A stretch of 53,185 nt of DNA from an uncultured Parabacteroides sp. (GCA_964542435.1 CAZIVE010000004.1:1-53185); one strand, 5' to 3'; positions 210 through 52,842 are shown, counted from the first letter of the stretch. Numbers and translations: made by a program. The notes: a model not told the origin generated them from the letters alone.

Positions 210-2327
210 CTATTGAATCAATCCGCGATTGCGAAGAAGCGGCTTCGTGTCGGGTTTGCGTCCGCGGAAGTTGATGTACATATCCATAGCGTCATCAATG
301 CCGCCGGGAGTCAGAATATATTTGCGGAACTTTCCGGCAACTTCCTGGTTGAAGATGTCGCCTGTTTCCTTGTAAGCTTCATAAGCATCGGCGTCAAGCA
401 CTTCAGCCCACATGTAGGAATAATAGCCGGCTGTGTAGCCGCCGCCCATGGTGTGAGAGAAGTAAGTGGTGCGATAACGAGGCGGAATCTGACTGAGAAT
501 GCCTCGTTTGGCCAATGTCTCTGCTTCGAACTTGTTGATGTCAAGATTGTCGGGAATATCGGTCAGTACATGATAATCCATGTCGAGATAGGAAGCGGCT
601 ACATATTCAACCGTCGCAAAACCCTGTCCATATTTTCCACTCTTGTCGAGTTTTTCAATCAATGAAGCGGGAATGACTTCTCCGGTTTTGTAATTGCGAG
701 CGTAGACTTTCAGCACTTCAGGTTCGAAAGCCCAATGTTCATCAATCTGTGACGGCAGTTCCACGAAATCACGAGGCACTCCGCTAACACCATAATAATG
801 TACATCCTTGAACAGATTGTGCAAAGCATGACCAAATTCATGGAAGAGCGTCGTAGCTTCGTCCACGCTCAGCAATGCAGGCTGTCCGGGAGCCGGCGGA
901 GTGAAGTTGGTGACGATGGTAACAACGGGAGCGACTTTCTTGCCGTCTTTGTATGTCATGCTGCGATAGGTTCCGCACCAGGCACCGCCGTTCTTTCCGG
1001 CACGTGGGAAATGGTCCATATAGAGTACGCCCAGATGTGAACCGTCTTTGTCCTTGCATTCGAAAGCAAGCGCATCAGGATGAGGCAGCGGAATGTTTTT
1101 GATCGGAGTGAAGGTGATGCCGTACAGTTTGTTGGCTACATAGAAAACGCCTTCGCGCACTTTGTCCAGTTCGAGATAAGGACGCACCTCATTCTCGTTG
1201 AGACTGAACTTCGACTGTTTGGCTTTGTCCGCATAGTAGCGCCAATCCCAAGCTTCGGCTTCGAAGTTTCCTCCCTCTTTCTTGATTTCGGCATTAATGT
1301 CGGCCAATTCTTCTTGAGCTTTGGCAACGGCGGGCTTCCAAACCTCGTCGAGCAGCTGATAGACATTGTCAGCCGTTTTTGCCATACGATCGTCGAGAGC
1401 ATACGCTGCATACGTAGGATATCCCATCAGTTTGGCTTTCTCGAGGCGGGCTTGAATCAGTTTGAGGACAACCTCTTTATTATCGTTGGCATTTCCATTG
1501 TTGCCGCGCATTAGATAAGCCTCCAGGATCTTCTTTCTCAGATCACGTTTGGCGGAATACTGCAGGAATGGCATGATGCTCGGGTTTTTCAGCGTGAAAA
1601 CCCATTTGCCGTCCAGTTTATTCTGCTTGGCTGTGATAGCTGCGTTGGCGACAAGGTCTTCAGGCAGACCAGCAAGATCTTCCTTATTGTCGATGACTAG
1701 TTTGAAAACGTTCGTCTCCTTCAGCATATTCTGCGAGAAGGTGAGCTGAAGCATAGAAATCTGGCTGTTGAGTTCGCGCAGACGAGCCTGTTTGTCTGCA
1801 GGTAGATTGGCACCGCTGCGGACGAAGCTTTTGTAAGTCTCTTCAAGCAGCTTGGCCTGTTCCTTGTTAAGGTTCAGCGAAGCCCGTTTGTCATAAACCG
1901 TTTTGATGCGGGTAAATAGTGTCGGGTTCAGATTGATGTCGTCATAATGCTTGGAGCGGAGTGGTGAGAGTTTTCGTCCCACTTCCTGCATTTCCTCGTT
2001 GGTGTTGGCCGAACTCTGAGCGCCGAAGATGGATCCCACTTTGCGAAGCAGGTCGCCGCTTTGGTCGAGTGCCACGATGGTGTTCTCGAAAGTCGGCTCG
2101 GCCGTGTTGTTGCAGATTGCAGCCACATCCGCTGAATCCTGTTGCATAGCTAAGATGAAAGCGGGCAAATAGTCTGTCACTTTTATTTTCTCAAAAGGAG
2201 GAACCTCGAAAGGTGTCCCGAATGAAGGAGCGAGCAGCGGATTGTCCTTGGGGCTAGTTAAGTCCTGAGCATTTACGGAACCTACGAGCGCAGCTGCCAG
2301 TCCTGCAATGATAATCATTTTTCTCAT
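210..2327 (-). CDS. dcp: M3-family zinc metallopeptidase, peptidyl-dipeptidase Dcp type, secreted
   Basis: The ORF is 705 aa with an N-terminal signal peptide (MRKMIIIAGLAAALVGSVNA). It has the HEXXH zinc motif in TLFHEFGHALHNLF. Length and layout are typical of M3A dipeptidyl carboxypeptidases. Confidence 0.85.
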   Translation of the reverse strand: MRKMIIIAGLAAALVGSVNAQDLTSPKDNPLLAPSFGTPFEVPPFEKIKVTDYLPAFILAMQQDSADVAAICNNTAEPTFENTIVALDQSGDLLRKVGSIFGAQSSANTNEEMQEVGRKLSPLRSKHYDDINLNPTLFTRIKTVYDKRASLNLNKEQAKLLEETYKSFVRSGANLPADKQARLRELNSQISMLQLTFSQNMLKETNVFKLVIDNKEDLAGLPEDLVANAAITAKQNKLDGKWVFTLKNPSIMPFLQYSAKRDLRKKILEAYLMRGNNGNANDNKEVVLKLIQARLEKAKLMGYPTYAAYALDDRMAKTADNVYQLLDEVWKPAVAKAQEELADINAEIKKEGGNFEAEAWDWRYYADKAKQSKFSLNENEVRPYLELDKVREGVFYVANKLYGITFTPIKNIPLPHPDALAFECKDKDGSHLGVLYMDHFPRAGKNGGAWCGTYRSMTYKDGKKVAPVVTIVTNFTPPAPGQPALLSVDEATTLFHEFGHALHNLFKDVHYYGVSGVPRDFVELPSQIDEHWAFEPEVLKVYARNYKTGEVIPASLIEKLDKSGKYGQGFATVEYVAASYLDMDYHVLTDIPDNLDINKFEAETLAKRGILSQIPPRYRTTYFSHTMGGGYTAGYYSYMWAEVLDADAYEAYKETGDIFNQEVAGKFRKYILTPGGIDDAMDMYINFRGRKPDTKPLLRNRGLIQ

Positions 2328-2375: not shown

Positions 2376-2756
2376 TCAGGAATTTCGTATCAATCTTCTG
2401 ATGTATGAGCGGAGATCTTCCGGATTAAATGGCTTTTGAATGAAATCTATAGCCCCTTCCCGTTTTACTCTGCCGCGTATCTCGTCATTCTCGACACTCG
2501 ATAGGATCAATGTGGGTATATTTTTCCATGAATCGTTTGATTTGAGAGTTTGGAGAAACTCTTCACCCGACATCTCCGGCATTCGTAAGTCTGTGACGAT
2601 GATATCAGGAAAATTCCCTTCATGGAGCCATTGCAAGGCTTCAATAGGATTCCTAAAATAGACCAAGTCGTAATCATGAAGGTACAGAGCTACTATTTTG
2701 TCTATTTCAGGAGTGTCATCAACTAATAGGATTTTTTTATTAATCGTTGGATTCAT
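2376..2756 (-). CDS. Stand-alone response-regulator receiver domain protein (CheY-like)
   Basis: The ORF is 126 aa. It has receiver hallmarks: ILLVDD acidic pocket, phospho-acceptor context IIVTDLRMPEMSG, and a conserved Lys in FIQKPF. There is no output domain and no adjacent kinase. Confidence 0.8.
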   Translation of the reverse strand: MNPTINKKILLVDDTPEIDKIVALYLHDYDLVYFRNPIEALQWLHEGNFPDIIVTDLRMPEMSGEEFLQTLKSNDSWKNIPTLILSSVENDEIRGRVKREGAIDFIQKPFNPEDLRSYIRRLIRNS

Positions 2757-12586: not shown

Positions 12587-12970
12587 ATGAGAATAGAGCA
12601 TGCAGCCATTTATGTAAAGGATATCGAACAGTCGAAAGATTTCTTTGTCCGTTATTTTGGAGCCGTTTCAAACGAAATGTATCACAATCCGAAGACAGGA
12701 CTTCGAACCTATTTCCTTACGTTCGACGGTGGTTCTCGTCTGGAACTGATGACGCGTCCTGACCTTTGTCCTTCAGTGAAGAATCCGCTTCAATGTGGAT
12801 TCATACATATTGCTTTCAGTGTCGGATCTAAAGAGAAGGTCGATTCTCTGACGGAGACACTTCGTAAAGATGGATATTGTGTTGTCAGCGGTCCACGAAC
12901 GACGGGCGATGGCTGCTATGAGAGCTGTGTGAAAGACAAGGAAGATAATCTGATAGAGATAACCATATGA
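12587..12970 (+). CDS. VOC/glyoxalase-family protein
   Basis: The ORF is 127 aa. The N-terminus MRIEHAAIYVKDIEQSKDFF and the single-domain size are typical of glyoxalase/bleomycin-resistance/dioxygenase superfamily proteins. Confidence 0.7.
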   Translation: MRIEHAAIYVKDIEQSKDFFVRYFGAVSNEMYHNPKTGLRTYFLTFDGGSRLELMTRPDLCPSVKNPLQCGFIHIAFSVGSKEKVDSLTETLRKDGYCVVSGPRTTGDGCYESCVKDKEDNLIEITI

Positions 12971-13448
12971 AAAATGTCAATGAAACCGTTCGTCGGCAAG
13001 ATAGAATTATGGATGAATCCCGTGCAATGGAGAGCTGAAAAATGGAGACTACGGCGTTCTTTCCATGTACGATGCAGAAACGAAGACACCTTATGGTGTT
13101 CCTGTGAACTATGTTTGGGATGGGAAAGACAGCATCTTTATACACTGTGCAGTAGAGGGACGGAAACTGCGTTGCATAGAAAAGAGCTCCGATGTGTCCT
13201 TTTGTATTATCGGGCACACGCGTGTTATCCCATTTAAATTTACGACAGAGCGAGAGAGTGTTATTTTTAAAGGAACGGCACATTTCCAACTTGGCGACGA
13301 AGAAAAGCTGCGTGCCTTGAGTCTGCTGGTAGATAAATTTTCGTCTGAGTTTAAGGTTGCTGGAATGAAATATGCAGAGAAATCTCTACATAGAGTTGAA
13401 ATCATTCGTGTTGATTTTACCGAGTGGAGTGGCAAATGCAAATACTGA
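12967..13448 (+). pseudogene. Frameshifted pyridoxamine-5'-phosphate-oxidase-like (Nim-family fold) gene
   Basis: The ATG at 12967 overlaps the VOC stop codon (ATGA). It reads MKNVNETVRRQDRIMDESRAMES and then stops at 13036. The 0-frame is open from 13017 and reads ..GELKNGDYGVLSMYDAETKTPYGVPVNYVWDGKDSIFIHCAVEGRKL.. through to 13448. Joined with one extra base near 13030-13035, the two parts give about 160 aa, a canonical PNPOx/Nim length and N-terminus. Confidence 0.6.
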
Positions 13449-13564
13449 ATGGGAGGCCATTAGCAATAAATATGGCCGTAGATGTTGCCTGTTTGTCTTT
13501 GAAAGTTGCAAATATCGGGCAATAAATGAAAAAAATCCGACAAGAGATAGACAATGAATCAACC

Positions 13565-13572
13565 TACATTTG
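13565..13572 (+). promoter_or_regulatory. -7 promoter box (TAnnTTTG) for paralog 1
   Basis: tacatttg lies 44 nt upstream of the ATG at 13616. Confidence 0.45.
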
Positions 13573-13615
13573 CTTCGTAAACGAAAATACACAAACCAAT
13601 TAATTCTTTAAGATC

Positions 13616-14608
13616 ATGAGTAATAGAAGAACTTTTTTAAAAAATCTTTCCCTCATCTCGTTGAGTGGATTCGTAGGAGAGAGAGCATTCGCTTCCAATC
13701 AGCCCTCATTTATGGGAAGCGAGATTCCTTCAGTGATGAATACGGAAGGCAAGAAACAGATGGGCTTGCAGACCTATTCACTGGGACAGGAACTACTGAA
13801 GGATATGCCGAACGGATTGAAACGTCTGGCAAAGATGGGCTACACAGAGTTGGAGATTTTCGGATATAAGGAAGACTCCGGTAAATTCGGCGATTATTCA
13901 CGTACCAACACTACGTTTATTGATCCTCAGAATTATTTTGACATGGCAGATAATGCAGGACTCGTCATCACAAGTTCGCATCTTACTCCGATGATCCAGG
14001 ATTATACAAAGGAGAATATGCCGAAGTTCGAAGAGTTTTGGAAGAAGGCAACGGATGTCCATTTCAAGTTAAATGCAAAATATATGGTGCAGCCGAGTCT
14101 GCCCCGTATTCAGAGCGAAGACGATGCTAAGCGTGTGGCTGATATTTTCAATCGCGCCGGTGAGATCACCAAAGAGGCCAATATTACTTTCGGCTATCAT
14201 AACCATAGCAACGAATTCAAGACCATCTCAAAAGACGGTGTGCAGGATATTCCCAAGTCTCCTTTCGAGAAGCCGCAAGGACCTTTCATCGAGGAATTGT
14301 TGTTGAAGAATACGGATCCTGAAAAAGTATCTTTTGAATTGGATGTTTATTGGGCTATGATGGCTCAGCAGGATCCTGTTGAGTGGATTCAGAAATATCC
14401 CAAGAGGTTTAAGCTGCTCCACATCAAAGACCGTTGGATCATTGGTGATTCGGGAATGCTGAACTTTGCTAATATCTTCAAAGCCGGTTATCAGAACGGC
14501 ATGACGAACTACTTCGTTGAACTGGAAGGTGATCCTGATAATAGAAGCCAGTTTGAAGGTGTTGAACAAAGTGCGATGTATCTCAAAAAGGCATCGTTTG
14601 TCAAATAA
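13616..14608 (+). CDS. Tat-exported xylose-isomerase-like TIM-barrel protein (sugar phosphate isomerase/epimerase family), paralog 1
   Basis: The ORF is 330 aa. It has the twin-arginine motif SNRRTFLKN followed by a hydrophobic region and AxA. TIM-barrel motifs are GYTELEIFG, GYHNHSNEF and FELDVYW. Confidence 0.7.
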   Translation: MSNRRTFLKNLSLISLSGFVGERAFASNQPSFMGSEIPSVMNTEGKKQMGLQTYSLGQELLKDMPNGLKRLAKMGYTELEIFGYKEDSGKFGDYSRTNTTFIDPQNYFDMADNAGLVITSSHLTPMIQDYTKENMPKFEEFWKKATDVHFKLNAKYMVQPSLPRIQSEDDAKRVADIFNRAGEITKEANITFGYHNHSNEFKTISKDGVQDIPKSPFEKPQGPFIEELLLKNTDPEKVSFELDVYWAMMAQQDPVEWIQKYPKRFKLLHIKDRWIIGDSGMLNFANIFKAGYQNGMTNYFVELEGDPDNRSQFEGVEQSAMYLKKASFVK

Positions 14609-14663
14609 TGTTTCAGATGAATTAACCAAATTCCATTCATAGATTAAAATAATAATGTATTGA

Positions 14664-14729
14664 GGGTTGTCCAGTTTTCGGCTGCATCTGTGAAAGATGA
14701 GTCTAAGACGAAGGACAGCCCTTTTTATT
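14664..14729 (+). terminator. Long-hairpin terminator candidate after paralog 1
   Basis: gggttgtcc pairs with ggacagccc (one G-U pair). An inner stem is formed by catct/agatg. The hairpin is followed by ctttttatt. Confidence 0.5.
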
Positions 14730-14857
14730 CTCCCTATTTAGGTTTTGTTGATGCACATCAAAAAATGAGTTAATAGCTAAGAATCAGCCACTTTTTGACA
14801 AACATCAAGAAATAGGAAATATTGGGAAATCAGATACTTATTGAAGAATTTTTGTTA

Positions 14858-14865
14858 TATATTTG
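14858..14865 (+). promoter_or_regulatory. -7 promoter box (TAnnTTTG) for paralog 2
   Basis: tatatttg lies 46 nt upstream of the ATG at 14911. Confidence 0.45.
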
Positions 14866-14910
14866 TCAGTGTAGTCAAAACATAAACTAACTTATTAATT
14901 CTTTAAGACC

Positions 14911-15903
14911 ATGAGTAACAGAAGAACTTTTTTGAAGAATTTCTCTCTTTTGACATTAGGCGGATTAGCCGGAGAGAAAGCAATGGCTTCCAATCATTCC
15001 TATTTTAGTGGAAGCGAAGTGCCTTCAGTGATGAGCACAGAAGGTAAGAAGCAGATGGGCCTGCAGACCTATTCTTTAGGGCAGGAACTTCTCAAGGACA
15101 TGCCGAACGGTTTGAAACGGTTGGCTAAAATGGGTTACACTGAATTGGAAATCTTCGGTTATCGAGGAGATTCAGGAAAGTTCGGTGATTATTCGCGTAC
15201 TAATACGACATTCATCGCTGCAAAGGACTATTATCAGATGGCAGAGGATGCAGGCTTGCTTATAACGAGCTCACATCTTTCGCCTTCCATTCAGGAATAC
15301 ACCGCAGAGAACATGCCGAAGTTTGACGAGTTCTGGAAGAAAGCGACCGATGTGCATTTCAATATGAATGTGAAATACATGGTACAGCCGAGTCTGCCGC
15401 GTATTCAGAGCGAAGACGATGCGAAGCGTGTGGCTGAGATCTTCAATCGTGCCGGTGAAATAACCAAACAGGCGGGAATCACGTGGGGATATCATAACCA
15501 CAGCAATGAGTTCAAGACCATCTCAAAAGATGGCGTGCAGGATATTCCAAAGTCTCCTTTCGAGAAGCCGCAAGGACCTTCCATCGAGGAACTCTTCCTC
15601 AAGAACACAGATCCTGACAAGGTCGTATTTGAGTTGGATGTATATTGGGCCATGATGGCTCAGCAAGATCCCGTGGAATGGATCAACAAGTATTCTCAAC
15701 GTTACAAACTGCTCCACATCAAAGACCGTTGGATCATCGGAGATTCGGGAATGCTGAACTTTGCCAATATCTTCAAGGCTGGATACAAGAACGGCATGAC
15801 GAATTACTTCGTCGAGTTGGAAGGTAATCCCGAAAATAAAGTCCAGTTTGAAGGCGTCGAAAAGAGTGCGATGTATTTGAAAAAGGCATCGTTTGTCAAA
15901 TAA
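14911..15903 (+). CDS. Tat-exported xylose-isomerase-like TIM-barrel protein, paralog 2
   Basis: The ORF is 330 aa. A gap-free manual alignment to paralog 1 gives 51 mismatches in 330 residues (about 85% identity). The Tat motif SNRRTFLKN is the same. Confidence 0.7.
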   Translation: MSNRRTFLKNFSLLTLGGLAGEKAMASNHSYFSGSEVPSVMSTEGKKQMGLQTYSLGQELLKDMPNGLKRLAKMGYTELEIFGYRGDSGKFGDYSRTNTTFIAAKDYYQMAEDAGLLITSSHLSPSIQEYTAENMPKFDEFWKKATDVHFNMNVKYMVQPSLPRIQSEDDAKRVAEIFNRAGEITKQAGITWGYHNHSNEFKTISKDGVQDIPKSPFEKPQGPSIEELFLKNTDPDKVVFELDVYWAMMAQQDPVEWINKYSQRYKLLHIKDRWIIGDSGMLNFANIFKAGYKNGMTNYFVELEGNPENKVQFEGVEKSAMYLKKASFVK

Positions 15904-45242: not shown

Positions 45243-45285
45243 AAAGAAGGCAGGAAACGGTTTGGGTTTTCTGCCTTCTTTATTT
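45243..45285. terminator. Bidirectional terminator between convergent genes
   Basis: agaaggcag (45245-45253) pairs with ctgccttct (45271-45279). The hairpin is flanked by A-rich sequence upstream and T-rich sequence downstream. Confidence 0.65.
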
Positions 45286-46405: not shown

Positions 46406-46413
46406 TATATTTG
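46406..46413 (+). promoter_or_regulatory. -7 promoter box (TAnnTTTG) for the kinase / 5AR operon
   Basis: tatatttg lies 112 nt upstream of the ATG at 46525. Confidence 0.4.
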
Positions 46414-46524: not shown

Positions 46525-48864
46525 ATGGATCTGAGATATTACATAGGACTTTTTTCTTTACTGCTCGTGTTCATGCTGGCAGGGTGCTCTTCTCATAAGA
46601 AAGGTAATAAGATCCAGGTCGTTGTCATACAATCTTTCGGACAATCACATGCCGTACAATCCCAATGTGAGCAGACAGTATATAAGGTATTCCGTGATGA
46701 AGATCTCGATGTCAAGATTCATTCGATTTATCTGAATTCAGAAGATCAATCACGTGGAACTTTGGACAGCCGCATGCAGATGCTTCTGGATTCCTGTTCT
46801 TGGTGGAAACCTTCTGTCATCCTCGTTTACGATGACGTCGCAACCGATGCACTTCTTCGTGCCAACATGAATATTGTCTATGACACCCCTGTGATTTTTG
46901 CAGGCGTCAATTTCCCCGACTGGTCTTTGATCGAGAAGTTCAAGAATGTAACGGGATATACATCTACGCCTGAATATATGAAGGCGGCGGATATGGCGAA
47001 CGAACTCTTCCATCCTCAGAATATTAGTTTCTGGATGAATCAAAGTGAAGAAGGACAGATGCATATTCACGCACTGCTGATGGATCTAAAATACGGACGG
47101 CAGATTTATCGCATCTGCAATTCCGAGCGGTCGATGCATTATCGGCTTGTGACGGAACAGATTTTTGCTTTGGAGCCTGATTCCACGCCGGATGCCGTTG
47201 ATTATGCTAACAAACATTATGAAGCAGGCAAGCCAAACATCGTGCTACTCAATTACAATCAGGAAAGTGCCAAGAATCTGCTGTCGATTCTTTCCGGCAA
47301 GATTCAGAAGAATGTATTTATCACATCCCAACGCGCCGATCATTCCCAGAAGTTCGCTTTGATGGCTTCGGCTCCGACATTCACTACAGTAAGTGAAGGA
47401 TTCGGAATCGACGAGGGTATTTTGGGCGGTTACTTTCCTTCCGCTGAATCGGAGTGGTCGAACAGTGCCAAGTTGGCAGCTGATGTCTTGAATGGTACAA
47501 ACATTTCCACTATTCCGGTTCGGATGCTTAAGAAGGAATATTGGATCGATTATCGCGAGTTGAGCCGTTGGCATATCGATATGAAAGATCTGCCGTCGAA
47601 CTATAAGATAGCCAATCTGCCTTTTTACATCAAACATCGTATATCGATCACCTGGAGTTTTTGGTTGTTCCTTTTTGTCGTCCTCGTCTGCATATCGATT
47701 TTGGTCCATCTGTATCATAAAGAAAAAGTTAGGCGGCTGGCCGTGCTGAAGAAGATCAAAGAGGAAGAGGAGTTCCGAGAATTGGCCATGCGCGGTTCCA
47801 AGGTTTATGCATTCAATATAGACAAAACCGGAATGAGGTTCGATAAGGATTTCTGTATGATCTATGGAGGCCATTTTCAAAATATTTCCATAGACGATTT
47901 TATTCACTTCATCGACAAACCTTATTGGTATTCTTTCCAGAAAGACGTTGAAATGATGAATATCGGCACGCTCAACAATGGAAATATCCGCCATGCGCCT
48001 TTGAATCTGACAGGAAAAGGCTACGAATGGTGGGAGTTCCGATTCAACTTCTCGCGTCTCAATATGACCATCTCCGGAATTCTCTTCAATATCCAGCAGA
48101 TGAAGCAGGAGGAGGAAGAGTTGCGCATTTCCCGAGAGAAGGTACTGGAATCGGAGAAAATGAAGTCCGTTTTCCTTGCCAGCATGAGTCATGAGATACG
48201 CACGCCTCTCAATGCGATCGTCGGCTTTTCGAATCTGATTGCGGACGATGTGGATTCGGAACTCACCATGGAACAGAAGCAGGAGTTCAAACAGCAGATC
48301 AACACCAACAATGAAATGCTGCTGAAGCTCTTCAATGATATCCTTGATCTTTCACAATTGGTGGGCGGACAAATGGAACTCAAGAAGGATGCGTGTGATC
48401 TCAGCCAATTGATGCTCGATATGTTCAATCAGTACAAACCTTTGATGCACGAAGGCGTTGAGATGTCTATTCAGCTTCCTGAAAAAGCAACTATTCTCCA
48501 AACCGATGTCAAGCGGTTGACACAGGTGATTCGTAATATTGTAAACAACGCCCGTAAGTTTACGCTCAAAGGGCATATTTTGATCGGTTACGAGGAAGGT
48601 CCTGAAAACGGACAGGTCAGCTTGTTCATTGAAGATACTGGAGTTGGCATTCCGAAAGAACTGCAGGAAAAGATCTTTGGTCGATTCACCAAGTTGGATT
48701 CGTTCAAACAGGGCACAGGTATCGGACTTGCCATTAGTCGGAGCATCATCCTTCAGATGGGCGGTTCGATTTCGTTGAAATCCGAGCTTGATTCCGGTAG
48801 TCGTTTTATCATCACTCTTCCAATAGTGGAAAAGGAGCAAGACTTCAATCCTATTGTGAAATGA
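46525..48864 (+). CDS. Sensor histidine kinase with a large periplasmic solute-binding-protein-like lipoprotein domain
   Basis: The ORF is 779 aa. It has the lipobox FMLAGCS, a periplasmic domain of about 340 aa, and a TM helix (WSFWLFLFVVLVCISILVHLY). Kinase motifs are a PAS-like segment, H-box MSHEIRTPLNAIVGFS, N-box NIVNNARKFT, and G-boxes EDTGVGI / GTGIGLAIS. There is no receiver domain. Confidence 0.85.
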   Translation: MDLRYYIGLFSLLLVFMLAGCSSHKKGNKIQVVVIQSFGQSHAVQSQCEQTVYKVFRDEDLDVKIHSIYLNSEDQSRGTLDSRMQMLLDSCSWWKPSVILVYDDVATDALLRANMNIVYDTPVIFAGVNFPDWSLIEKFKNVTGYTSTPEYMKAADMANELFHPQNISFWMNQSEEGQMHIHALLMDLKYGRQIYRICNSERSMHYRLVTEQIFALEPDSTPDAVDYANKHYEAGKPNIVLLNYNQESAKNLLSILSGKIQKNVFITSQRADHSQKFALMASAPTFTTVSEGFGIDEGILGGYFPSAESEWSNSAKLAADVLNGTNISTIPVRMLKKEYWIDYRELSRWHIDMKDLPSNYKIANLPFYIKHRISITWSFWLFLFVVLVCISILVHLYHKEKVRRLAVLKKIKEEEEFRELAMRGSKVYAFNIDKTGMRFDKDFCMIYGGHFQNISIDDFIHFIDKPYWYSFQKDVEMMNIGTLNNGNIRHAPLNLTGKGYEWWEFRFNFSRLNMTISGILFNIQQMKQEEEELRISREKVLESEKMKSVFLASMSHEIRTPLNAIVGFSNLIADDVDSELTMEQKQEFKQQINTNNEMLLKLFNDILDLSQLVGGQMELKKDACDLSQLMLDMFNQYKPLMHEGVEMSIQLPEKATILQTDVKRLTQVIRNIVNNARKFTLKGHILIGYEEGPENGQVSLFIEDTGVGIPKELQEKIFGRFTKLDSFKQGTGIGLAISRSIILQMGGSISLKSELDSGSRFIITLPIVEKEQDFNPIVK

Positions 48865-49625
48865 CAATGGCCGCCTTTTCTCTATTTATGATTGTGATGT
48901 CGTTCCTTGCAATCATTGTCTTCATTTCGCTTTATTTCGTGGATGCCGGTTATGGAATGCTGTTCAACGGAAAATGGGGAAAGGCACTTTCCAATAAAGT
49001 CGCATGGATTTGCATGGAAGCACCGGTTTTCATCGTGATGCTTTTGCTTTGGATCACATCCACGCGGCGCTTCGAAGCGGGAGCTTTGGTTATTTTCCTG
49101 CTGTTTGAGTTTCATTACTTCCGTCGTTCCTTCGTTTTCCCTTTGCGGATGAAGGGCAACAGCCGAATGCCTTCGGGAATTATGGCAATGGGCATCCTGT
49201 TTAATCTTCTCAATGGATTCATGCAGGGCGAATGGCTGTTCCATCTTGCGCCGGAAGAAAGATATTCTGCTGATTGGCTCACGACGCCTCCTTTTATCAT
49301 CGGGACGATCGTCTTCCTGACGGGCATGTTCATTAACTGGCAATCGGACAACATCGTGCGGAATCTTCGTAAGCCGGGCGATACGAACCATTATCTTCCG
49401 GAGAAAGGACTCTTCGCTTATGTCACATCTGCCAATTATTTCGGCGAGATAGTGGAATGGATCGGCTTTGCCATTCTCACCTGGAGTTGGAGCGGAGCGG
49501 TCTTTGCGTGGTGGACAGCCGCCAATCTCGTGCCGCGTGCCAATACGCTCTATCATAAATATCAGACGATGTTCGGTGCAGAACAGATGGGAAAGAGGAA
49601 ACGGATCTTTCCCTTCATATATTAA
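48861..49625 (+). CDS. 3-oxo-5-alpha-steroid 4-dehydrogenase (steroid 5-alpha-reductase) family membrane protein
   Basis: The ORF is 254 aa and polytopic. It has the C-terminal family signature YVTSANYFGEIVEWIGFAILTWS. Its ATG overlaps the kinase stop codon (ATGA at 48861-48864). Confidence 0.75.
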   Translation: MTMAAFSLFMIVMSFLAIIVFISLYFVDAGYGMLFNGKWGKALSNKVAWICMEAPVFIVMLLLWITSTRRFEAGALVIFLLFEFHYFRRSFVFPLRMKGNSRMPSGIMAMGILFNLLNGFMQGEWLFHLAPEERYSADWLTTPPFIIGTIVFLTGMFINWQSDNIVRNLRKPGDTNHYLPEKGLFAYVTSANYFGEIVEWIGFAILTWSWSGAVFAWWTAANLVPRANTLYHKYQTMFGAEQMGKRKRIFPFIY

Positions 49626-49636
49626 ATGTGTAAGAC

Positions 49637-50869
49637 ATGGAATCAATTCTTTATACACCTGCTAAGATTGGACCGCTCACCTTGCGCAACCGTACGATTC
49701 GTTCGGCTGCCTTCGAGAGCATGTGTCCCGGCAATGTTCCATCCAAGGAACTTTTCGATTATCACACTTCTGTAGCGGCAGGAGGCATTGGCATGACGAC
49801 GATTGCCTATGCTGCCGTAACACGTAGCGGACTTTCCTTCGATCGCCAGTTGTGGATGCGGCCGGAGATAGTGGACGGTCTCCGAAAGATTACCGATTCG
49901 GTCCACAAAGAGGGCGCAGCTGTTTCCATTCAGATCGGGCATTGCGGCAACATGTCGCACCGCAGTATCTGTGGCTGTACGCCCATTTCTGCCTCTTCCG
50001 GATTCAATCTTTATTCGCCGACGTTTGTCCATGGCATGCGCAAAGATGAAATCTACGCTGTGGCCAAAGCCTTCGGCAATGCAGTCAATCTAGCGCGCGA
50101 AGCCGGATTCGATGCAGTGGAAGTGCATGCTGGACATGGTTATCTCATCAGTCAGTTTCTTTCTCCCTACACCAATCATCGGCATGACGAGTATGGCGGA
50201 AGTCTCGACAACCGCATGCGTTTCATGAAGATGTGCATGGATGAGGTGATGAAAGCCGCTGGTACGGATATGGCCGTGCTGGTGAAAATGAACATGCGTG
50301 ACGGCTTCAAAGGCGGAATGGAGATCGACGAATCGCTGGAAGTGGCCCGAACGTTGCAGAACGAATGTGGTGCGCAGGCGCTGGTATTGAGCGGCGGCTT
50401 CGTCAGTCGCGCTCCGATGTATGTCATGCGTGGTGCGATGCCCATCAAGACGCTTACCCATTATATGCCTTTCGGATGGCTTCCTCCATTCGTACATCTC
50501 TGCGGTCATCAGATGATTCCGACCGTTCCCTATAAAGAGGCCTATTTCCTCGACGATGCCCTGCTTTTCCGCAAGGAGCTGGCTATGCTGTTGGTTTATA
50601 TTGGTGGGTTGACGCGCCGTAAGATGATCGATGAGGTTCTGAACAAGGGCTTCGAGTTTGTCAGTATGGCTCGCGCTCTCATCAATGATCCGGCCTTCGT
50701 GAATCATATCCGGGAAGATGCAAACGGATGCTGCGACTGTGGCCATAGCAACTATTGCATCGGACGGATGTACACGATCGAGATGGCTTGTCATCACCAT
50801 GTGGAGAATCTTCCCAAAGGTATCGAAAAGGAAATCGACAAACTGGAAAAGAGATGGACGAAGGAATAA
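49637..50869 (+). CDS. Old-Yellow-Enzyme-family NADH:flavin oxidoreductase with a C-terminal Cys cluster
   Basis: The ORF is 410 aa. It has the OYE motifs LRNRTIRSA and VEVHAGHGYLISQFLSPYTNHRHDEYGGSLDNRMRF. The C-terminal sequence CCDCGHSNYCIGRMYTIEMAC looks like the Fe-S motif of enoate / 2,4-dienoyl-CoA reductases. Confidence 0.85.
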   Translation: MESILYTPAKIGPLTLRNRTIRSAAFESMCPGNVPSKELFDYHTSVAAGGIGMTTIAYAAVTRSGLSFDRQLWMRPEIVDGLRKITDSVHKEGAAVSIQIGHCGNMSHRSICGCTPISASSGFNLYSPTFVHGMRKDEIYAVAKAFGNAVNLAREAGFDAVEVHAGHGYLISQFLSPYTNHRHDEYGGSLDNRMRFMKMCMDEVMKAAGTDMAVLVKMNMRDGFKGGMEIDESLEVARTLQNECGAQALVLSGGFVSRAPMYVMRGAMPIKTLTHYMPFGWLPPFVHLCGHQMIPTVPYKEAYFLDDALLFRKELAMLLVYIGGLTRRKMIDEVLNKGFEFVSMARALINDPAFVNHIREDANGCCDCGHSNYCIGRMYTIEMACHHHVENLPKGIEKEIDKLEKRWTKE

Positions 50870-51708
50870 CGATCATCACCGGCGCGGACAGCGGCATGGG
50901 AAGAGAGATCACGCTGGCTGTCGCCAAGAGCGGTTCGCCGATACTCATGGCATGCCGCACGGCGGAGCGAGCCAACAGCGTGGCCGAAGAGATCCGCGAA
51001 CTTTCCCACAATTCCCATATCGAGGTACGACCGATCAATCTGGCATCGCTGGCTTCTGTGGATGCTTTCACGAAACAGCTGCTCAGCGAGAAGCGTCCGA
51101 TCCGACGGATCGTGAACAATGCGGGCGTGCTCACCAGTTCGGTCCGTACGACGGAAGACGGTTTGGAAACGTTGGTCAGCGTGAATTATGTAGCACCCTA
51201 TTTCCTTACACGCCGTCTGCTTCCTCTGATGACTGTCGGTTCGCGAATCGTCAACACGGTCTCATGCACCTACGCCATCGGCAAACTGGATGACGCCTTT
51301 TTTGAGAAGGGACAGCGCGGTTCGTTCCGCAGGATTCCCGTTTACAGCAATACGAAGCTCGCCCTGCTGCTTTTTACGTTGGATCTGGCCGAACAGTTAA
51401 AGCCATCCGGCATCACCGTCAATGCATCCGATCCCGGAATCGTCAGCACCGACATGATCCGCATGAACGAATGGTTCGATTCACTGACAGACATTTTCTA
51501 TCGTCCCTTTATCCGAACAGCCGCGCAAGGTGCATCCACAGCCATCTATCTGGCCCTTTCACCTGATGTGGCCGAAGCAACAGGTGGCTGTTATGCCAAT
51601 CGTCGCCGTCGTTCGCTTTCCAACCGGATCCAAAATCATCCCATGCGTCATATCCTTTTCAGTGATACAGCGGAACTTCTCCACAAGAAACATTTCGAAA
51701 TCGAATAG
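50854..51708 (+). CDS. Short-chain dehydrogenase/reductase (classical SDR)
   Basis: The protein is 284 aa from the ATG at 50854 (MDEGITIITGADSGMGREI contains the TGxxxGxG motif). The catalytic YSNTKLAL (YxxxK) and NNAG motifs are present. The track start at 50755 lies inside the OYE gene. The true start overlaps the OYE gene by 16 nt. Confidence 0.85.
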   Translation: MDEGITIITGADSGMGREITLAVAKSGSPILMACRTAERANSVAEEIRELSHNSHIEVRPINLASLASVDAFTKQLLSEKRPIRRIVNNAGVLTSSVRTTEDGLETLVSVNYVAPYFLTRRLLPLMTVGSRIVNTVSCTYAIGKLDDAFFEKGQRGSFRRIPVYSNTKLALLLFTLDLAEQLKPSGITVNASDPGIVSTDMIRMNEWFDSLTDIFYRPFIRTAAQGASTAIYLALSPDVAEATGGCYANRRRRSLSNRIQNHPMRHILFSDTAELLHKKHFEIE

Positions 51709-51774: not shown

Positions 51775-52240
51775 TTTCCACCGGGTGAAATGCACTGTGA
51801 GACCTTTGAAAAGTCGTTTCACCGGTGCAGGAAGCTTTCAGAGTACTCGCCGAGCACCTTCACCCGTTGTAAAGTGCTTCCGGAGTACTCGCCGAGGACT
51901 TTTCACCCATTGTAAAGTGCTTTCAGAGTACTCGCCGAGCGCCTTCACCCGTTGTAAAGTGCTTTCAGAGCACTCGCCGAGGACTTTTCACCCGTTGTAA
52001 AGTGCTTTCAGAGTAGTCGCCAAGCACTTTTCACTCTTGCAGGAAGCTTGCCGAGTACTCGCCAAGGTGTTTCACCCGGTGCAGGAAGCTTGCCGAGGCC
52101 TTGCCAAGGAGATTTCACCCATGCCTGAAGCATTCAGAGTATTCATTAAGGACCTTCCATCCATGCTGGAAGCATTCGGAGCACTCACTTCATACATTTC
52201 ATCCATGCACAGAACAATGCGAGTTGTCGAAGATGTTGCC
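51775..52240. repeat. Largest tandem array: about 11 units of 41-44 bp
   Basis: Units start at 51775, 51817, 51859, 51901, 51944, 51986, 52029, 52070, 52113, 52155 and 52197. The central consensus is tttcacccgttgtaaagtgctttcagagtactcgccgaggac. The first unit carries the inverted junction tttccacc/gggtgaaa. The flanking units are progressively degenerate. Confidence 0.9.
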
Positions 52241-52364
52241 ACATTTCTACGGATTATGGGATAAGGTGTATAAATATTCCGAATGACTCATTGGGCTCCA
52301 TTCTGGATGATTATGCGATAAAGGCATGAATATCGATGAAAATATTCCAAAAAAATGCAACGCC

Positions 52365-52424
52365 GATGAATAATTATTCAATGAGTATGCATATATTTGC
52401 ACCCAAAATGAATATTTATACAAA
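52365..52424 (+). promoter_or_regulatory. Three ARG boxes (ArgR operators) in 21-bp phase
   Basis: The 18-mers are gaTGAATAATTATTCAat (52365), taTGCATATATTTGCAcc (52386) and aaTGAATATTTATACAaa (52407), each separated by 3 bp. This is the canonical TGAAT-N4-ATTCA architecture. Confidence 0.7.
52392..52399 (+). promoter_or_regulatory. -7 promoter box (TAnnTTTG) for argR, embedded in ARG box 2
   Basis: tatatttg lies 33 nt upstream of the ATG at 52432. Confidence 0.5.
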
Positions 52425-52431
52425 TAGGAGT

Positions 52432-52842
52432 ATGGTAAAAAATCGATTGGACGCAATTGTTCGCATTCTCAAAGATCATGCGATAGAGAATCAGGAGGAT
52501 CTGCTAAAGGAGCTGGAGAAGGTAGGCTTTCCGACCACTCAAGCTACACTTTCCCGTGATTTGAAGAGGCTGCAGGTCCTGAAGATCCATTCCACCGATG
52601 GCAGTTATGTCTATCGTTTGCCTGCTCATCCACAGGTCGATCATCAGACTATCGAGTTCTCTGGCAATCTGGCCGTTGTCCGGACAAGGCCCGGTTATGC
52701 AATGGGTATTGCATACGACATTGATGCGAATGCGTCGAAAGAGATCCTTGCAACCATTGCCGGCGATGACACGATTCTGGTGATTCCGCGCGAAGGTATC
52801 AGCCGGAACCGCATCGTGGAGGTTTTGCAGCGTTTGTTATGA
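52432..52842 (+). CDS. argR: Arginine repressor
   Basis: The protein is 136 aa from the ATG at 52432 ([13 protein letters not shown]). It has the winged-helix segment [15 protein letters not shown] and the C-terminal oligomerisation motif [13 protein letters not shown]. The track start at 52336 would place the operators inside the CDS. Confidence 0.85.

What the first reader, a model, noticed from the sequence alone, without database searches (positions are those of the whole stretch)
46525..51708. Sensor histidine kinase translationally coupled to a 5-alpha-reductase-like / OYE flavoenzyme / SDR module resembling an allo-bile-acid or steroid reduction cluster
Four genes form one tight unit. 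The kinase stop codon overlaps the next start (ATGA at 48861-48864). An 11-nt gap follows, and then a 16-nt overlap. The enzymes are a membrane 3-oxo-5-alpha-steroid 4-dehydrogenase family protein (signature SANYFGEIVEWIGFA), an OYE-family flavin oxidoreductase with a C-terminal Cys cluster (ene-reductase type), and a classical SDR (TGxxxGxG, YxxxK). As I recall, this is the enzyme trio (5AR, 5BR-type ene-reductase, 3-beta-HSDH) reported for gut Bacteroidota that convert 3-oxo-delta4 bile acids into allo- and isoallo-lithocholate. What seems unusual here is the co-operonic sensor kinase. It has a lipoprotein-anchored periplasmic domain of about 340 aa that looks like a solute-binding protein, and no cognate response regulator is nearby. 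The only stand-alone receiver in the window is 44 kb away, at 2376-2756. A dedicated sensor wired to a steroid-reducing module would be an undescribed regulatory arrangement.
Basis: partly seen in the sequence, partly recalled or inferred. Interest (0 to 1): 0.7.

Follow-up and report, generated by a model that had tools for sequence, protein, structure and literature searches.

The report
Known bile-acid reductase genes behind orphan kinase
The three enzyme genes are this uncultured gut-type bacterium's copy of a known steroid/bile-acid ring-reducing gene cluster, and the sensor kinase fused to their front end is real but occurs there in this one species only, so it is not shown to be their dedicated sensor.

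Summary
Four same-strand ORFs sit exactly as described: kinase 46525-48864, ATGA overlap, 5-alpha-reductase-like 48861-49625, 11-nt gap, OYE flavoenzyme 49637-50869, 16-nt overlap, SDR 50854-51708. The enzyme reading also holds. The trio is orthologous and syntenic with the 5AR/5BR/3-beta-HSDH cluster of Bacteroidales: 59-73 % (5AR), 60-84 % (OYE) and 36-67 % (SDR) identity where present in 80 loci, including Odoribacter laneus and Parabacteroides. The kinase's periplasmic part is a solute-binding-protein fold; its nearest solved relatives bind L-Tyr and L-Trp. The regulatory reading is not supported. The kinase lies next to the trio only in this species-level lineage. None of 83 other trio loci carries it, including the closest one. 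Its 30-40 % identical relatives sit in unrelated contexts, usually without a response regulator. One candidate promoter lies upstream of the kinase and none inside the unit, so co-transcription is likely, but nothing ties the kinase to control of the trio. Elsewhere in Tannerellaceae the trio follows an RND efflux operon. In Parabacteroides an atypical OmpR-type response regulator overlaps the 5AR start, which is a more testable lead. Verdict: a known module in an unusual, species-restricted gene order; modest interest.

The parts
46406..46413 (+). Candidate Bacteroidetes-type -7 promoter box (TATATTTG), 119 nt (start to start) upstream of the kinase ATG
   Evidence: located it. One search showed that TAnnTTTG on the + strand is enriched in intergenic DNA (10 of 24 hits in about 11 % of the window) and usually lies 39-160 nt before a gene start. 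None occurs on the + strand inside 46525-51708. This is a consensus match only, not proof of a promoter.
46525..48864 (+). Sensor histidine kinase, 779 aa, not a hybrid. Layout: lipobox signal, periplasmic solute-binding-type domain, TM helix, PAS-like linker, HisKA, HATPase_c
   Evidence: ORF. Pfam HisKA (residues 547-612) and HATPase_c (661-767). H-box His556 sits in the invariant MSHEIRTPLN motif. The exact protein occurs on 21 metagenome contigs read, and in all six places shown it has the same neighbours.
46525..46587 (+). Signal peptide with lipobox (LAG-C21)
   Evidence: Read directly from the translation. A Cys at the corresponding position is the majority residue in the family alignment.
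46588..47640 (+). Periplasmic sensor domain (about residues 22-372), type-I periplasmic-binding-protein fold of the PF04392 (ABC_sub_bind) kind
   Evidence: AF2 with a 51-sequence alignment gave pLDDT 89.6 and pTM 0.86. Foldseek top hits are 6hnj/6hni (CD0873), 3lkv and 3lft (L-Trp complex), with E 3e-12 to 4e-10 and target-normalised TM about 0.7. Homologues give sub-threshold PF04392 hits. The 400-aa N-terminal query has 2387 representative relatives at E<=1e-3, the best non-fragment hit at 32-34 % identity.
47641..47715 (+). Second transmembrane helix (about residues 373-397)
   Evidence: AF2 helix 372-399 over a hydrophobic stretch ISITWSFWLFLFVVLVCISILVHLY.
48163..48825 (+). Kinase core (HisKA plus HATPase_c)
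   Evidence: A profile of the family alignment matches solved histidine-kinase cores at E down to 7e-69.
48861..49625 (+). Membrane 3-oxo-5-alpha-steroid 4-dehydrogenase family protein ('5AR'), 254 aa; its start overlaps the kinase stop (ATGA)
   Evidence: PF02544 at 6e-42. Full-length alignment to PbSRD5A 7c83 (1e-47) and human SRD5A2 7bw1 (4e-36), with the Glu of the 'QE/ME' motif (E53) and the Tyr of the 'HYF' motif (Y86) conserved. Identity is 59-73 % to the 5AR of 80 Bacteroidales loci.
49637..50869 (+). Short OYE-family FMN oxidoreductase with a C-terminal Cys cluster ('5BR'-type), 410 aa
   Evidence: PF00724 at 4e-52. NCBIfam BaiCD, mycofactocin-OYE and bilirubin-reductase models match only the N-terminal barrel and fall far below their cut-offs. 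Identity is 60-84 % to the gene following 5AR in the loci that carry it. PDB relatives are YqjM-type OYEs and FadH.
50854..51708 (+). Classical SDR ('3-beta-HSDH'-type), 284 aa, overlapping the OYE gene by 16 nt
   Evidence: PF00106 at 4e-30. The TGxxxGxG and YxxxK motifs are visible in the translation. Identity is 58-62 % to the Parabacteroides gene in the same position (67 % in L023) and 44 % to the second of two SDRs in the Odoribacter laneus cluster.

Best explanation
The three enzyme genes are this organism's copy of the Bacteroidales A-ring reduction module.

- The membrane 5-alpha-reductase reduces delta4-3-oxo steroids or bile acids to 5-alpha (allo) 3-oxo products.
- The OYE flavoenzyme is the presumed 5-beta-reductase / delta4-dehydrogenase partner.
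- The SDR reduces the 3-oxo group, giving for example 3-oxo-delta4-LCA -> 3-oxoalloLCA -> isoalloLCA.
- The organism is an uncultured Bacteroidales species. Its closest trio homologues are in Parabacteroides and other Tannerellaceae.

In this lineage the module has left its usual Tannerellaceae context (AraC / TetR / RND efflux operon). It now sits between an M48 peptidase gene and argR, directly behind an orphan sensor histidine kinase. That kinase belongs to a large Bacteroidales kinase family with a PF04392-type solute-binding sensor domain.

The four genes are most likely transcribed together from a promoter about 110-120 nt upstream of the kinase. The enzymes would then be expressed whenever the kinase gene is.

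The kinase-trio adjacency is a recent, species-restricted gene order. Nothing indicates that the kinase senses steroids or controls the trio.

Shown here: gene structure, domain content, orthology and synteny of the trio, the fold of the sensor, and the restriction of the linkage to one lineage. Inferred: substrates (from characterised relatives reported in the literature), co-transcription, and the absence of a functional link.
For: Structure and domains.

Trio orthology and synteny:
- The trio was compared with 80 genome loci, including Odoribacter laneus YIT 12061 (L026: 65/69/44 % for 5AR/OYE/SDR) and Parabacteroides (up to 73/79/62 %).
- The cluster and its activities are described. P. 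merdae, O. laneus and B. dorei convert 3-oxo-delta4-LCA to isoalloLCA, and disruption of 5AR in P. merdae abolishes this.
- The 5AR aligns over its full length with solved SRD5A structures, with the Glu and Tyr motifs conserved.

Kinase restricted to one lineage:
- The exact protein occurs on 21 contigs read; all six places shown have the same neighbours.
- It forms a single 90 % cluster of 12 members, and the next word-index hit is 38 % identical over the C-terminal half only.
- tblastn finds no sensor-domain match and no catalytic-domain match near the trio in any of the 80 loci. The only weak kinase hits lie 7-8 kb from the 5AR gene.
- The closest trio relative (L089, by NJ tree) has a divergent AraC gene instead.
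- Other Tannerellaceae have TetR-OEP-MFP-AcrB-(P-II-like) upstream, and an OmpR-type regulator in 13 loci.

Kinase-family members elsewhere lie in unrelated contexts and lack an adjacent regulator.

Co-transcription: there is one -7 box upstream and none inside the unit, and no terminator-like hairpin at any junction.

Composition of the kinase gene is unremarkable (GC3 0.53, against 0.41-0.58 for other window genes).
Against: - No expression data exist, so co-transcription rests only on gene spacing and a consensus motif.
- A 4-nt start/stop overlap is the kind of junction usually kept between functionally linked genes.
- The arrangement is stable across 21 contigs read, from different samples.
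- A second two-component protein, an OmpR-type regulator, overlaps the 5AR start in Parabacteroides. Signal-transduction genes therefore recur at this position, which hints that such control of the module may be selected for.
- The enzymes' substrates in this uncultured organism are untested.
- Only 53 kb plus 10 kb of the genome could be inspected for a partner regulator.
Confidence: 0.6

Rival explanations
1. The kinase is a dedicated periplasmic sensor for bile acids, steroids or a related gut cue. It controls the reductase operon, and thereby itself, through an unlinked response regulator.
For: - The ATGA overlap and the single upstream promoter candidate place the kinase and the trio in one unit.
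- The sensor domain is a ligand-binding solute-binding-protein fold.
- The arrangement is stable across many samples.
- In Parabacteroides an OmpR-type regulator occupies the equivalent position, overlapping the 5AR start. Two-component control of the module is therefore not far-fetched.
Against: - The linkage occurs in one species-level lineage only, and in 0 of 83 other trio loci.
- Kinase relatives are never found next to steroid genes.
- No regulator with a DNA-binding domain lies within 46 kb upstream or 10 kb downstream.
- The closest solved sensor-fold relatives bind L-Tyr and L-Trp, and PF04392 ligands listed in the literature are L-Trp, L-Tyr and L-Phe.
- The Parabacteroides regulator has no counterpart in the window.
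Confidence: 0.15
2. The adjacency is only physical. The trio is transcribed from an unrecognised promoter inside the 3' end of the kinase gene, and the kinase belongs to an unrelated signalling pathway.
For: - The trio works as a self-contained unit behind many different upstream genes: citrate synthase, NADH dehydrogenase subunit, peptidase S9, radical SAM, AraC.
- Kinases of this family are habitually orphan and scattered.
- The linkage is species-restricted.
Against: - There is no intergenic space at all (ATGA overlap).
- No TAnnTTTG box occurs on the + strand anywhere in 46525-51708, while the motif marks most intergenic gene starts in this window.
- No terminator-like hairpin lies at the kinase end.
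Confidence: 0.2
3. The trio acts mainly on substrates other than bile acids, such as other delta4-3-oxo steroids, sterol-derived compounds or endogenous lipids. The bile-acid label is then only one facet of its function.
For: - The family is enormous: 3758 proteins at E<=1e-20.
- SRD5A enzymes accept several 3-oxo-delta4 steroids.
- JGI annotates the SDR as 'retinol dehydrogenase 12'.
- In other Tannerellaceae the trio follows a multidrug-type RND efflux operon, which fits a general detoxification role.
Against: Knock-out and feeding data in close relatives show bile-acid conversion. The catalytic Glu and Tyr motifs of steroid 5-alpha-reductases are conserved. The much weaker match to a very-long-chain enoyl-CoA reductase (2e-4, against 1e-47) argues against a polyprenol or enoyl-CoA type.
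Confidence: 0.2

Closest known systems
5AR / 5BR / 3-beta-HSDH gene cluster of gut Bacteroidales (Sato et al. 2021, as summarised in PMC10382948, PMC12345280 and bioRxiv 10.1101/2024.03.08.584156)
   Same: The same three protein families occur in the same order and on the same strand. Identity where present across the 80 Bacteroidales loci is 59-73 % (5AR), 60-84 % (OYE) and 36-67 % (SDR). Those loci include Odoribacter laneus, one of the species shown to make isoalloLCA.
   Different: Only one SDR is present, whereas Odoribacter-type clusters have two. The upstream neighbour is a sensor kinase, which no other locus has. The host is an uncultured species whose best 5AR match outside its own species is 70-74 % identical.
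Steroid 5-alpha-reductases with solved structures (PbSRD5A, PDB 7c83; human SRD5A2, PDB 7bw1)
   Same: Full-length alignment at E 1e-47 and 4e-36. The 'ME/QE' Glu, the 'HYF' Tyr and the C-terminal NADPH-region motif (NYxGEIxEW) are all conserved.
   Different: The protein is bacterial and sits in a gene cluster with two further reductases. Its substrate is presumed to be 3-oxo-delta4 bile acids rather than testosterone, and this was not tested here.
PF04392 (ABC_sub_bind) solute-binding proteins: CD0873 of C. difficile (6hni/6hnj), the S. pneumoniae L-Trp-binding protein (3lft), V. cholerae 3lkv
   Same: The same two-lobe type-I periplasmic-binding fold, with Foldseek E 3e-12 to 4e-10 and target-normalised TM about 0.7. 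Like CD0873, it carries a lipoprotein-type N-terminus.
   Different: Only 13-14 % identity. The domain is fused through a TM helix to a PAS-like linker and a kinase core, rather than serving an ABC transporter. It has an extra poorly modelled insertion at about residues 200-225. Its ligand is unknown.
RND-efflux-linked version of the same module in Parabacteroides and other Tannerellaceae (TetR-OEP-MFP-AcrB-(P-II-like)-(OmpR-type regulator)-5AR-OYE-SDR)
   Same: The trio is the same and is tightly joined to its upstream gene. In 13 loci that gene is also a two-component protein whose stop abuts or overlaps the 5AR start.
   Different: The partner there is a response regulator with an atypical receiver downstream of an efflux operon. 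Here it is a membrane kinase, with no efflux genes and no DNA-binding regulator.

Membership tests
Steroid 5-alpha-reductase family (PF02544 / SRD5A) | Match to the family profile above the curated threshold | tested here: met
   PF02544 scores 143.6 bits against a cut-off of 22.6, E 6e-42.
Steroid 5-alpha-reductase family (PF02544 / SRD5A) | Full-length similarity to enzymes of solved structure, with the substrate-carbonyl Glu and Tyr retained (residue roles recalled from the SRD5A2/PbSRD5A structure papers, i.e. my own knowledge) | tested here: met
   7c83 at 1e-47 and 7bw1 at 4e-36. E53 aligns with the Glu of 'QELP' and Y86 with the Tyr of 'HYF'.
Steroid 5-alpha-reductase family (PF02544 / SRD5A) | NADPH-dependent reduction of a delta4-3-oxo steroid | not testable with these tools
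   This needs an enzyme assay or feeding of 3-oxo-delta4-LCA.
Bacteroidales 5AR/5BR/3-beta-HSDH cluster | 5AR immediately followed by an OYE-type flavoenzyme and an SDR on the same strand | tested here: met
   for the window. The same order occurs in most of the 80 related loci.
Bacteroidales 5AR/5BR/3-beta-HSDH cluster | Orthology to the cluster in species with demonstrated isoalloLCA formation | tested here: met
   O. laneus YIT 12061 (L026) is 65/69/44 % identical, and activity of O. laneus is reported. The characterised P. merdae genes themselves were not among the loci retrieved.
BaiCD/BaiH-type Fe-S flavoenzymes | Full-length match including the C-terminal FAD/NAD(P)-binding domains | tested here: not met
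   NF041087 BaiCD scores 179.6 bits against a cut-off of 825, matching only residues 5-262 to profile positions 4-261 of 642. The protein has 410 aa. It shares the OYE barrel and a Cys cluster but is not a BaiCD equivalog.
Classical SDR | TGxxxGxG cofactor motif and YxxxK catalytic motif; PF00106 above threshold | tested here: met
   TGADSGMG and YSNTK are in the translation. PF00106 scores 105.3 bits against a cut-off of 26.6. Specificity for the 3-beta position was not testable.
Two-component sensor histidine kinase | HisKA with the phospho-acceptor His, plus an HATPase_c catalytic domain | tested here: met
   His556 lies in the invariant SHEIRTPLN motif, and the N, G1 and G2 boxes are conserved in the alignment.
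Two-component sensor histidine kinase | Cognate response regulator encoded next to it | tested here: not met
   The only receiver domain in the window is a stand-alone one at 2379-2756. No response-regulator gene is called in the 10 kb downstream in L081.
PF04392-type solute-binding sensor domain | Sequence match to PF04392 | tested here: not met
   The window protein gives no PF04392 hit. Only sub-threshold hits (E 3e-5 to 2e-3) appear in homologues.
PF04392-type solute-binding sensor domain | Fold match to solved PF04392 proteins | tested here: met
   The model has pLDDT 89.6. The top five Foldseek hits are all PF04392-type proteins, with E 3e-12 to 4e-10.
Conserved regulator-operon pair (kinase dedicated to the trio) | Linkage kept in independent lineages | tested here: not met
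   None of 80 genome loci and none of 3 further metagenomic arrangements has it. The linkage is seen only within one 90 %-identity cluster.

The most novel reading that the evidence does not exclude
The kinase uses its solute-binding sensor domain to detect a gut-lumen cue: a bile acid or steroid, or an aromatic amino-acid-like signal of the host or diet. Through an unlinked regulator it then autoregulates the kinase-5AR-5BR-HSDH operon. This would be the first sensory input described for bacterial allo/isoallo-bile-acid formation. Together with the atypical OmpR-type regulator fused to the same module in Parabacteroides, it would mean that two-component control of this module evolved more than once in Tannerellaceae.
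Probability: 0.12. Interest if true: 0.6.

Novelty: new variant of a known kind. Interest (0 to 1): 0.3.

Why it matters
IsoalloLCA and related allo-bile acids made by this module are reported to inhibit Gram-positive pathogens and to act on host T-reg cells. The papers I could search name no regulator of the module. If a sensor really controlled it, one could ask what signal switches production on.

The present evidence says the kinase linkage is a one-species gene order. Its value therefore lies mainly in showing how the module moves between regulatory contexts: AraC, TetR/RND efflux, an OmpR-type regulator, a kinase, or none. The Parabacteroides regulator is abundant in metagenomes and occurs in cultured species, so it is the better experimental entry point.

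Tried and rejected
- Single-sequence AF2 of the whole kinase gave pLDDT 36.5 and was unusable. It was repeated on residues 1-400 with a 51-sequence alignment.
- The profile of alignment A1 against PDB sequences was dominated by the kinase core and said nothing about the sensor. Fold search was used instead.
- The word-index protein search made the kinase look like an orphan with no sensor homologues. The exhaustive HMMER search corrected this, finding 2387 representatives.
With A2 the metagenome scan was saturated by generic kinase motifs, and only three full-length relatives were obtained.
- The sigma-70 promoter scan is not appropriate for Bacteroidetes and found nothing on the + strand. It was replaced by a TAnnTTTG scan.
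- Horizontal acquisition of the kinase, judged by composition, is not supported: GC3 is within the window's range.
- I tested whether the Parabacteroides regulator is the missing partner encoded elsewhere in the window. No similarity was found.
- The primary paper of Sato et al. 2021 is not held, so its content is cited through reviews.
- Rfam and tRNA scans of the window were empty.
- A literature search found no characterised kinase with this sensor type.

Full report
OBSERVATION

- Sensor kinase: 46525-48864 (779 aa).
- 5-alpha-reductase-like protein: 48861-49625 (254 aa).
- OYE flavoenzyme: 49637-50869 (410 aa).
- SDR: its ATG at 50854 gives 284 aa ending at 51708. Gene callers use the same start on the same-species contigs that reach it.

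The junctions are an ATGA start/stop overlap (sequence read), an 11-nt gap and a 16-nt overlap. Pfam confirms HisKA plus HATPase_c, PF02544 (6e-42), PF00724 (4e-52) and PF00106 (4e-30), all far above the curated cut-offs. The quoted SANYFGEIVEWIGFA, TGxxxGxG and YxxxK motifs and the C-terminal Cys cluster of the OYE are all in the translations.

THE ENZYMES

A scan of one genome per species with the 5AR found 361 relatives. I analysed the best 80 loci.
- In most of them the 5AR is followed on the same strand by an OYE gene (60-84 % identical to the window's where present) and an SDR (36-67 %).
- The loci include Parabacteroides, Bacteroides, Alistipes, Butyricimonas and Odoribacter laneus YIT 12061.

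This is the cluster described for gut Bacteroidales.
- 5AR and 5BR genes are adjacent, with 3-beta-HSDH next to them.
- P. merdae, O. laneus and B. dorei convert 3-oxo-delta4-LCA to isoalloLCA.
- 5AR disruption in P. merdae abolishes allo-LCA products.
- The neighbouring flavin oxidoreductase is hypothesised to be the 5-beta-reductase.

The window's 5AR aligns end to end with the solved steroid 5-alpha-reductases PbSRD5A (1e-47) and human SRD5A2 (4e-36). The Glu (E53) and Tyr (Y86) motifs are conserved. Its match to a very-long-chain enoyl-CoA reductase is marginal, at 2e-4.

The OYE is a short form of 410 aa. BaiCD, mycofactocin-OYE and bilirubin-reductase models match only its barrel and stay far below their cut-offs. 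It is therefore 'BaiCD-like' only in the loose sense used in the literature.

Odoribacter-type clusters carry two SDRs. The window, like Parabacteroides, has only the counterpart of the second.

Substrates remain inferred.

THE KINASE

The N-terminus carries a lipobox (LAG-C21). A second TM helix lies at about residues 373-397, and the core has an intact H-box (His556).

The word-index search suggested an orphan. It found one 90 % cluster of 12 members, with the next hit 38 % identical over the C-terminal half only. The exhaustive HMMER search of the 400-aa N-terminal region showed a large family instead.
- There are 2387 representatives at E<=1e-3 and 33 at E<=1e-30.
- The best non-fragment hits are 32-34 % identical, about 40 % over the full length for the closest.
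- Most share the same architecture of about 770 aa, and some are hybrids with a receiver.

With a 51-sequence alignment AF2 gave a confident model (pLDDT 89.6). Its best PDB matches are the PF04392-type solute-binding proteins CD0873, 3lkv and 3lft (E 3e-12 to 4e-10). The ligands listed for that family are L-Trp, L-Tyr and L-Phe. At 13-14 % identity this says little about the present ligand. It gives no support to a steroid ligand.

IS THE KINASE TIED TO THE TRIO?

Physically, yes, in this organism. The exact protein is on 21 contigs read, from several sources. All six places shown have the order M48(-) | kinase-5AR, continuing with OYE and SDR wherever the contig reaches that far. The contigs that extend past the SDR continue with a tandem-repeat spacer, with argR after it where the contig reaches it.

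A Bacteroidetes-type -7 box (TATATTTG) lies 119 nt (start to start) before the kinase ATG. No such box occurs on the + strand within the 5.2-kb unit. In this window the motif is about five-fold enriched in intergenic DNA and typically sits 39-160 nt before gene starts. No terminator-like hairpin lies at any junction. Co-transcription is the simplest reading, but it is only inferred.

Evolutionarily, no.
- tblastn with the sensor and catalytic halves found nothing next to the trio in any of the 80 loci.
- Three further arrangements, retrieved through the closest metagenomic 5AR clusters, also lack the kinase.
- In an NJ tree of 5AR plus OYE the window is sister to L089, where a divergent AraC gene precedes the 5AR.
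- The next clade is the Parabacteroides/Tannerellaceae group. There the trio follows TetR-OEP-MFP-AcrB and a small P-II-like gene.
- Bacteroides has aconitase-IDH-citrate synthase upstream. Other lineages have unrelated genes.
- Conversely, the kinase's relatives sit beside unrelated genes, sometimes as tandem paralogues, and without an adjacent regulator.
- In the window the only receiver is a canonical stand-alone one, 44 kb away. Nothing follows within 10 kb downstream.

That result was obtained. The kinase gene's composition is ordinary, so there is no sign of recent foreign origin. The module rather than the kinase seems to have changed neighbourhood, because none of Rho, MutS2-like or argR flanks the trio elsewhere.

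A LEAD OUTSIDE THE WINDOW

In 13 Parabacteroides loci an OmpR-family response regulator of about 230 aa ends at or overlaps the 5AR start by up to 17 nt.
- Its receiver keeps the acceptor Asp in 12 of 13 sequences.
- It has Lys-Asp, Lys-Asn or Lys-Ser instead of the acidic pair, and Cys in most sequences (Phe or Gly in two) instead of the conserved Thr.
- One member has Ser at the acceptor position.

The receiver is therefore atypical and possibly phosphorylation-independent. The protein is abundant in metagenomes and present in cultured species such as P. massiliensis and P. gordonii. It has no counterpart in the window.

It shows that signal-transduction genes have been joined to this module more than once. 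This keeps the regulatory idea alive at low probability, and it offers a far more tractable test system than the uncultured organism of the window.

VERDICT

The enzyme assignment and the sensor-fold guess are supported. The claim of a dedicated steroid sensor is not.
- The best explanation is a known bile-acid/steroid A-ring reduction module placed behind, and probably co-transcribed with, an orphan solute-binding-type kinase in one uncultured Bacteroidales species (confidence about 0.6).
- The dedicated-sensor model keeps about 0.15.
- Purely accidental adjacency with separate transcription keeps about 0.2.
- The substrate-breadth rival (about 0.2) is not exclusive of the others.

Novelty: a new gene-order variant of a known module.

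Interest: modest (0.3).

Noticed in passing
window 51792-52208: A non-coding tandem array of about ten units of 42-43 nt (consensus GCTTTCAGAGTACTCGCCGAGCACTTTTCACCCGTTGTAAAGT; the best-conserved part reads as an 85-nt double unit). It fills most of the 627-nt spacer between the SDR gene and argR. The unit occurs nowhere else in the window, and among the 174 fetched loci only in same-species contigs at the same place. Its function is unknown, and Rfam gives no match.
   Followed up: partly
L001 9196-10011 (also L002, L004, L008, L009, L011-L014, L016, L017, L019, L023): In Parabacteroides an OmpR-family response regulator ends at or overlaps the start of the 5AR gene. Its receiver is atypical: the acidic pair is replaced by Lys-Asp, Lys-Asn or Lys-Ser, the conserved Thr by Cys (Phe or Gly in two sequences), and L016 has Ser at the phospho-acceptor position. 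It is abundant in metagenomes. It is a candidate regulator of the isoalloLCA module in cultured species.
   Followed up: partly
L091 1385-7997; L093 867-7986: In Tannerellaceae the trio lies directly downstream of a TetR gene, a complete RND efflux operon (OEP, MFP, AcrB), a 97-aa P-II-like gene and, in L093/L094, a 187-aa gene with no Pfam match. A divergent AraC gene lies further upstream. This suggests export and reduction of the same hydrophobic substrates are coupled there.
   Followed up: partly
L087 272-4421; L088 6001-10756: Kinases of the same PF04392-sensor family occur as tandem paralogue pairs with no response regulator nearby. In L088 the pair follows primase-type mobile-element genes.
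   Followed up: no
window 12587-15903: A tandem duplication. Two 330-aa secreted xylose-isomerase-like TIM-barrel proteins (13616-14608 and 14911-15903) are 85 % identical. The first follows two 127-aa ORFs (12587-12970 and 13065-13448). Three of these four ORFs have a TAnnTTTG box 51-54 nt upstream; the fourth (13065-13448) does not.
   Followed up: partly
window 2379-2756 (-): A stand-alone 126-aa receiver protein with canonical DD / D / S / K residues, encoded upstream of an M3 peptidase gene (213-2327, minus strand). It is the only receiver in the window. Nothing links it to the kinase.
   Followed up: partly
window 45243-45281: A perfect-looking hairpin (16-nt arms, 94 % complementary, 7-nt loop) lies between the convergent MutS2-like and M48 peptidase genes. 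It is probably a bidirectional terminator.
   Followed up: no
window 52336-52842: The argR ORF probably starts later than the first ATG. Gene callers use 158 or 168 aa, and a TATATTTG box lies at 52392, inside the longest ORF.
   Followed up: no
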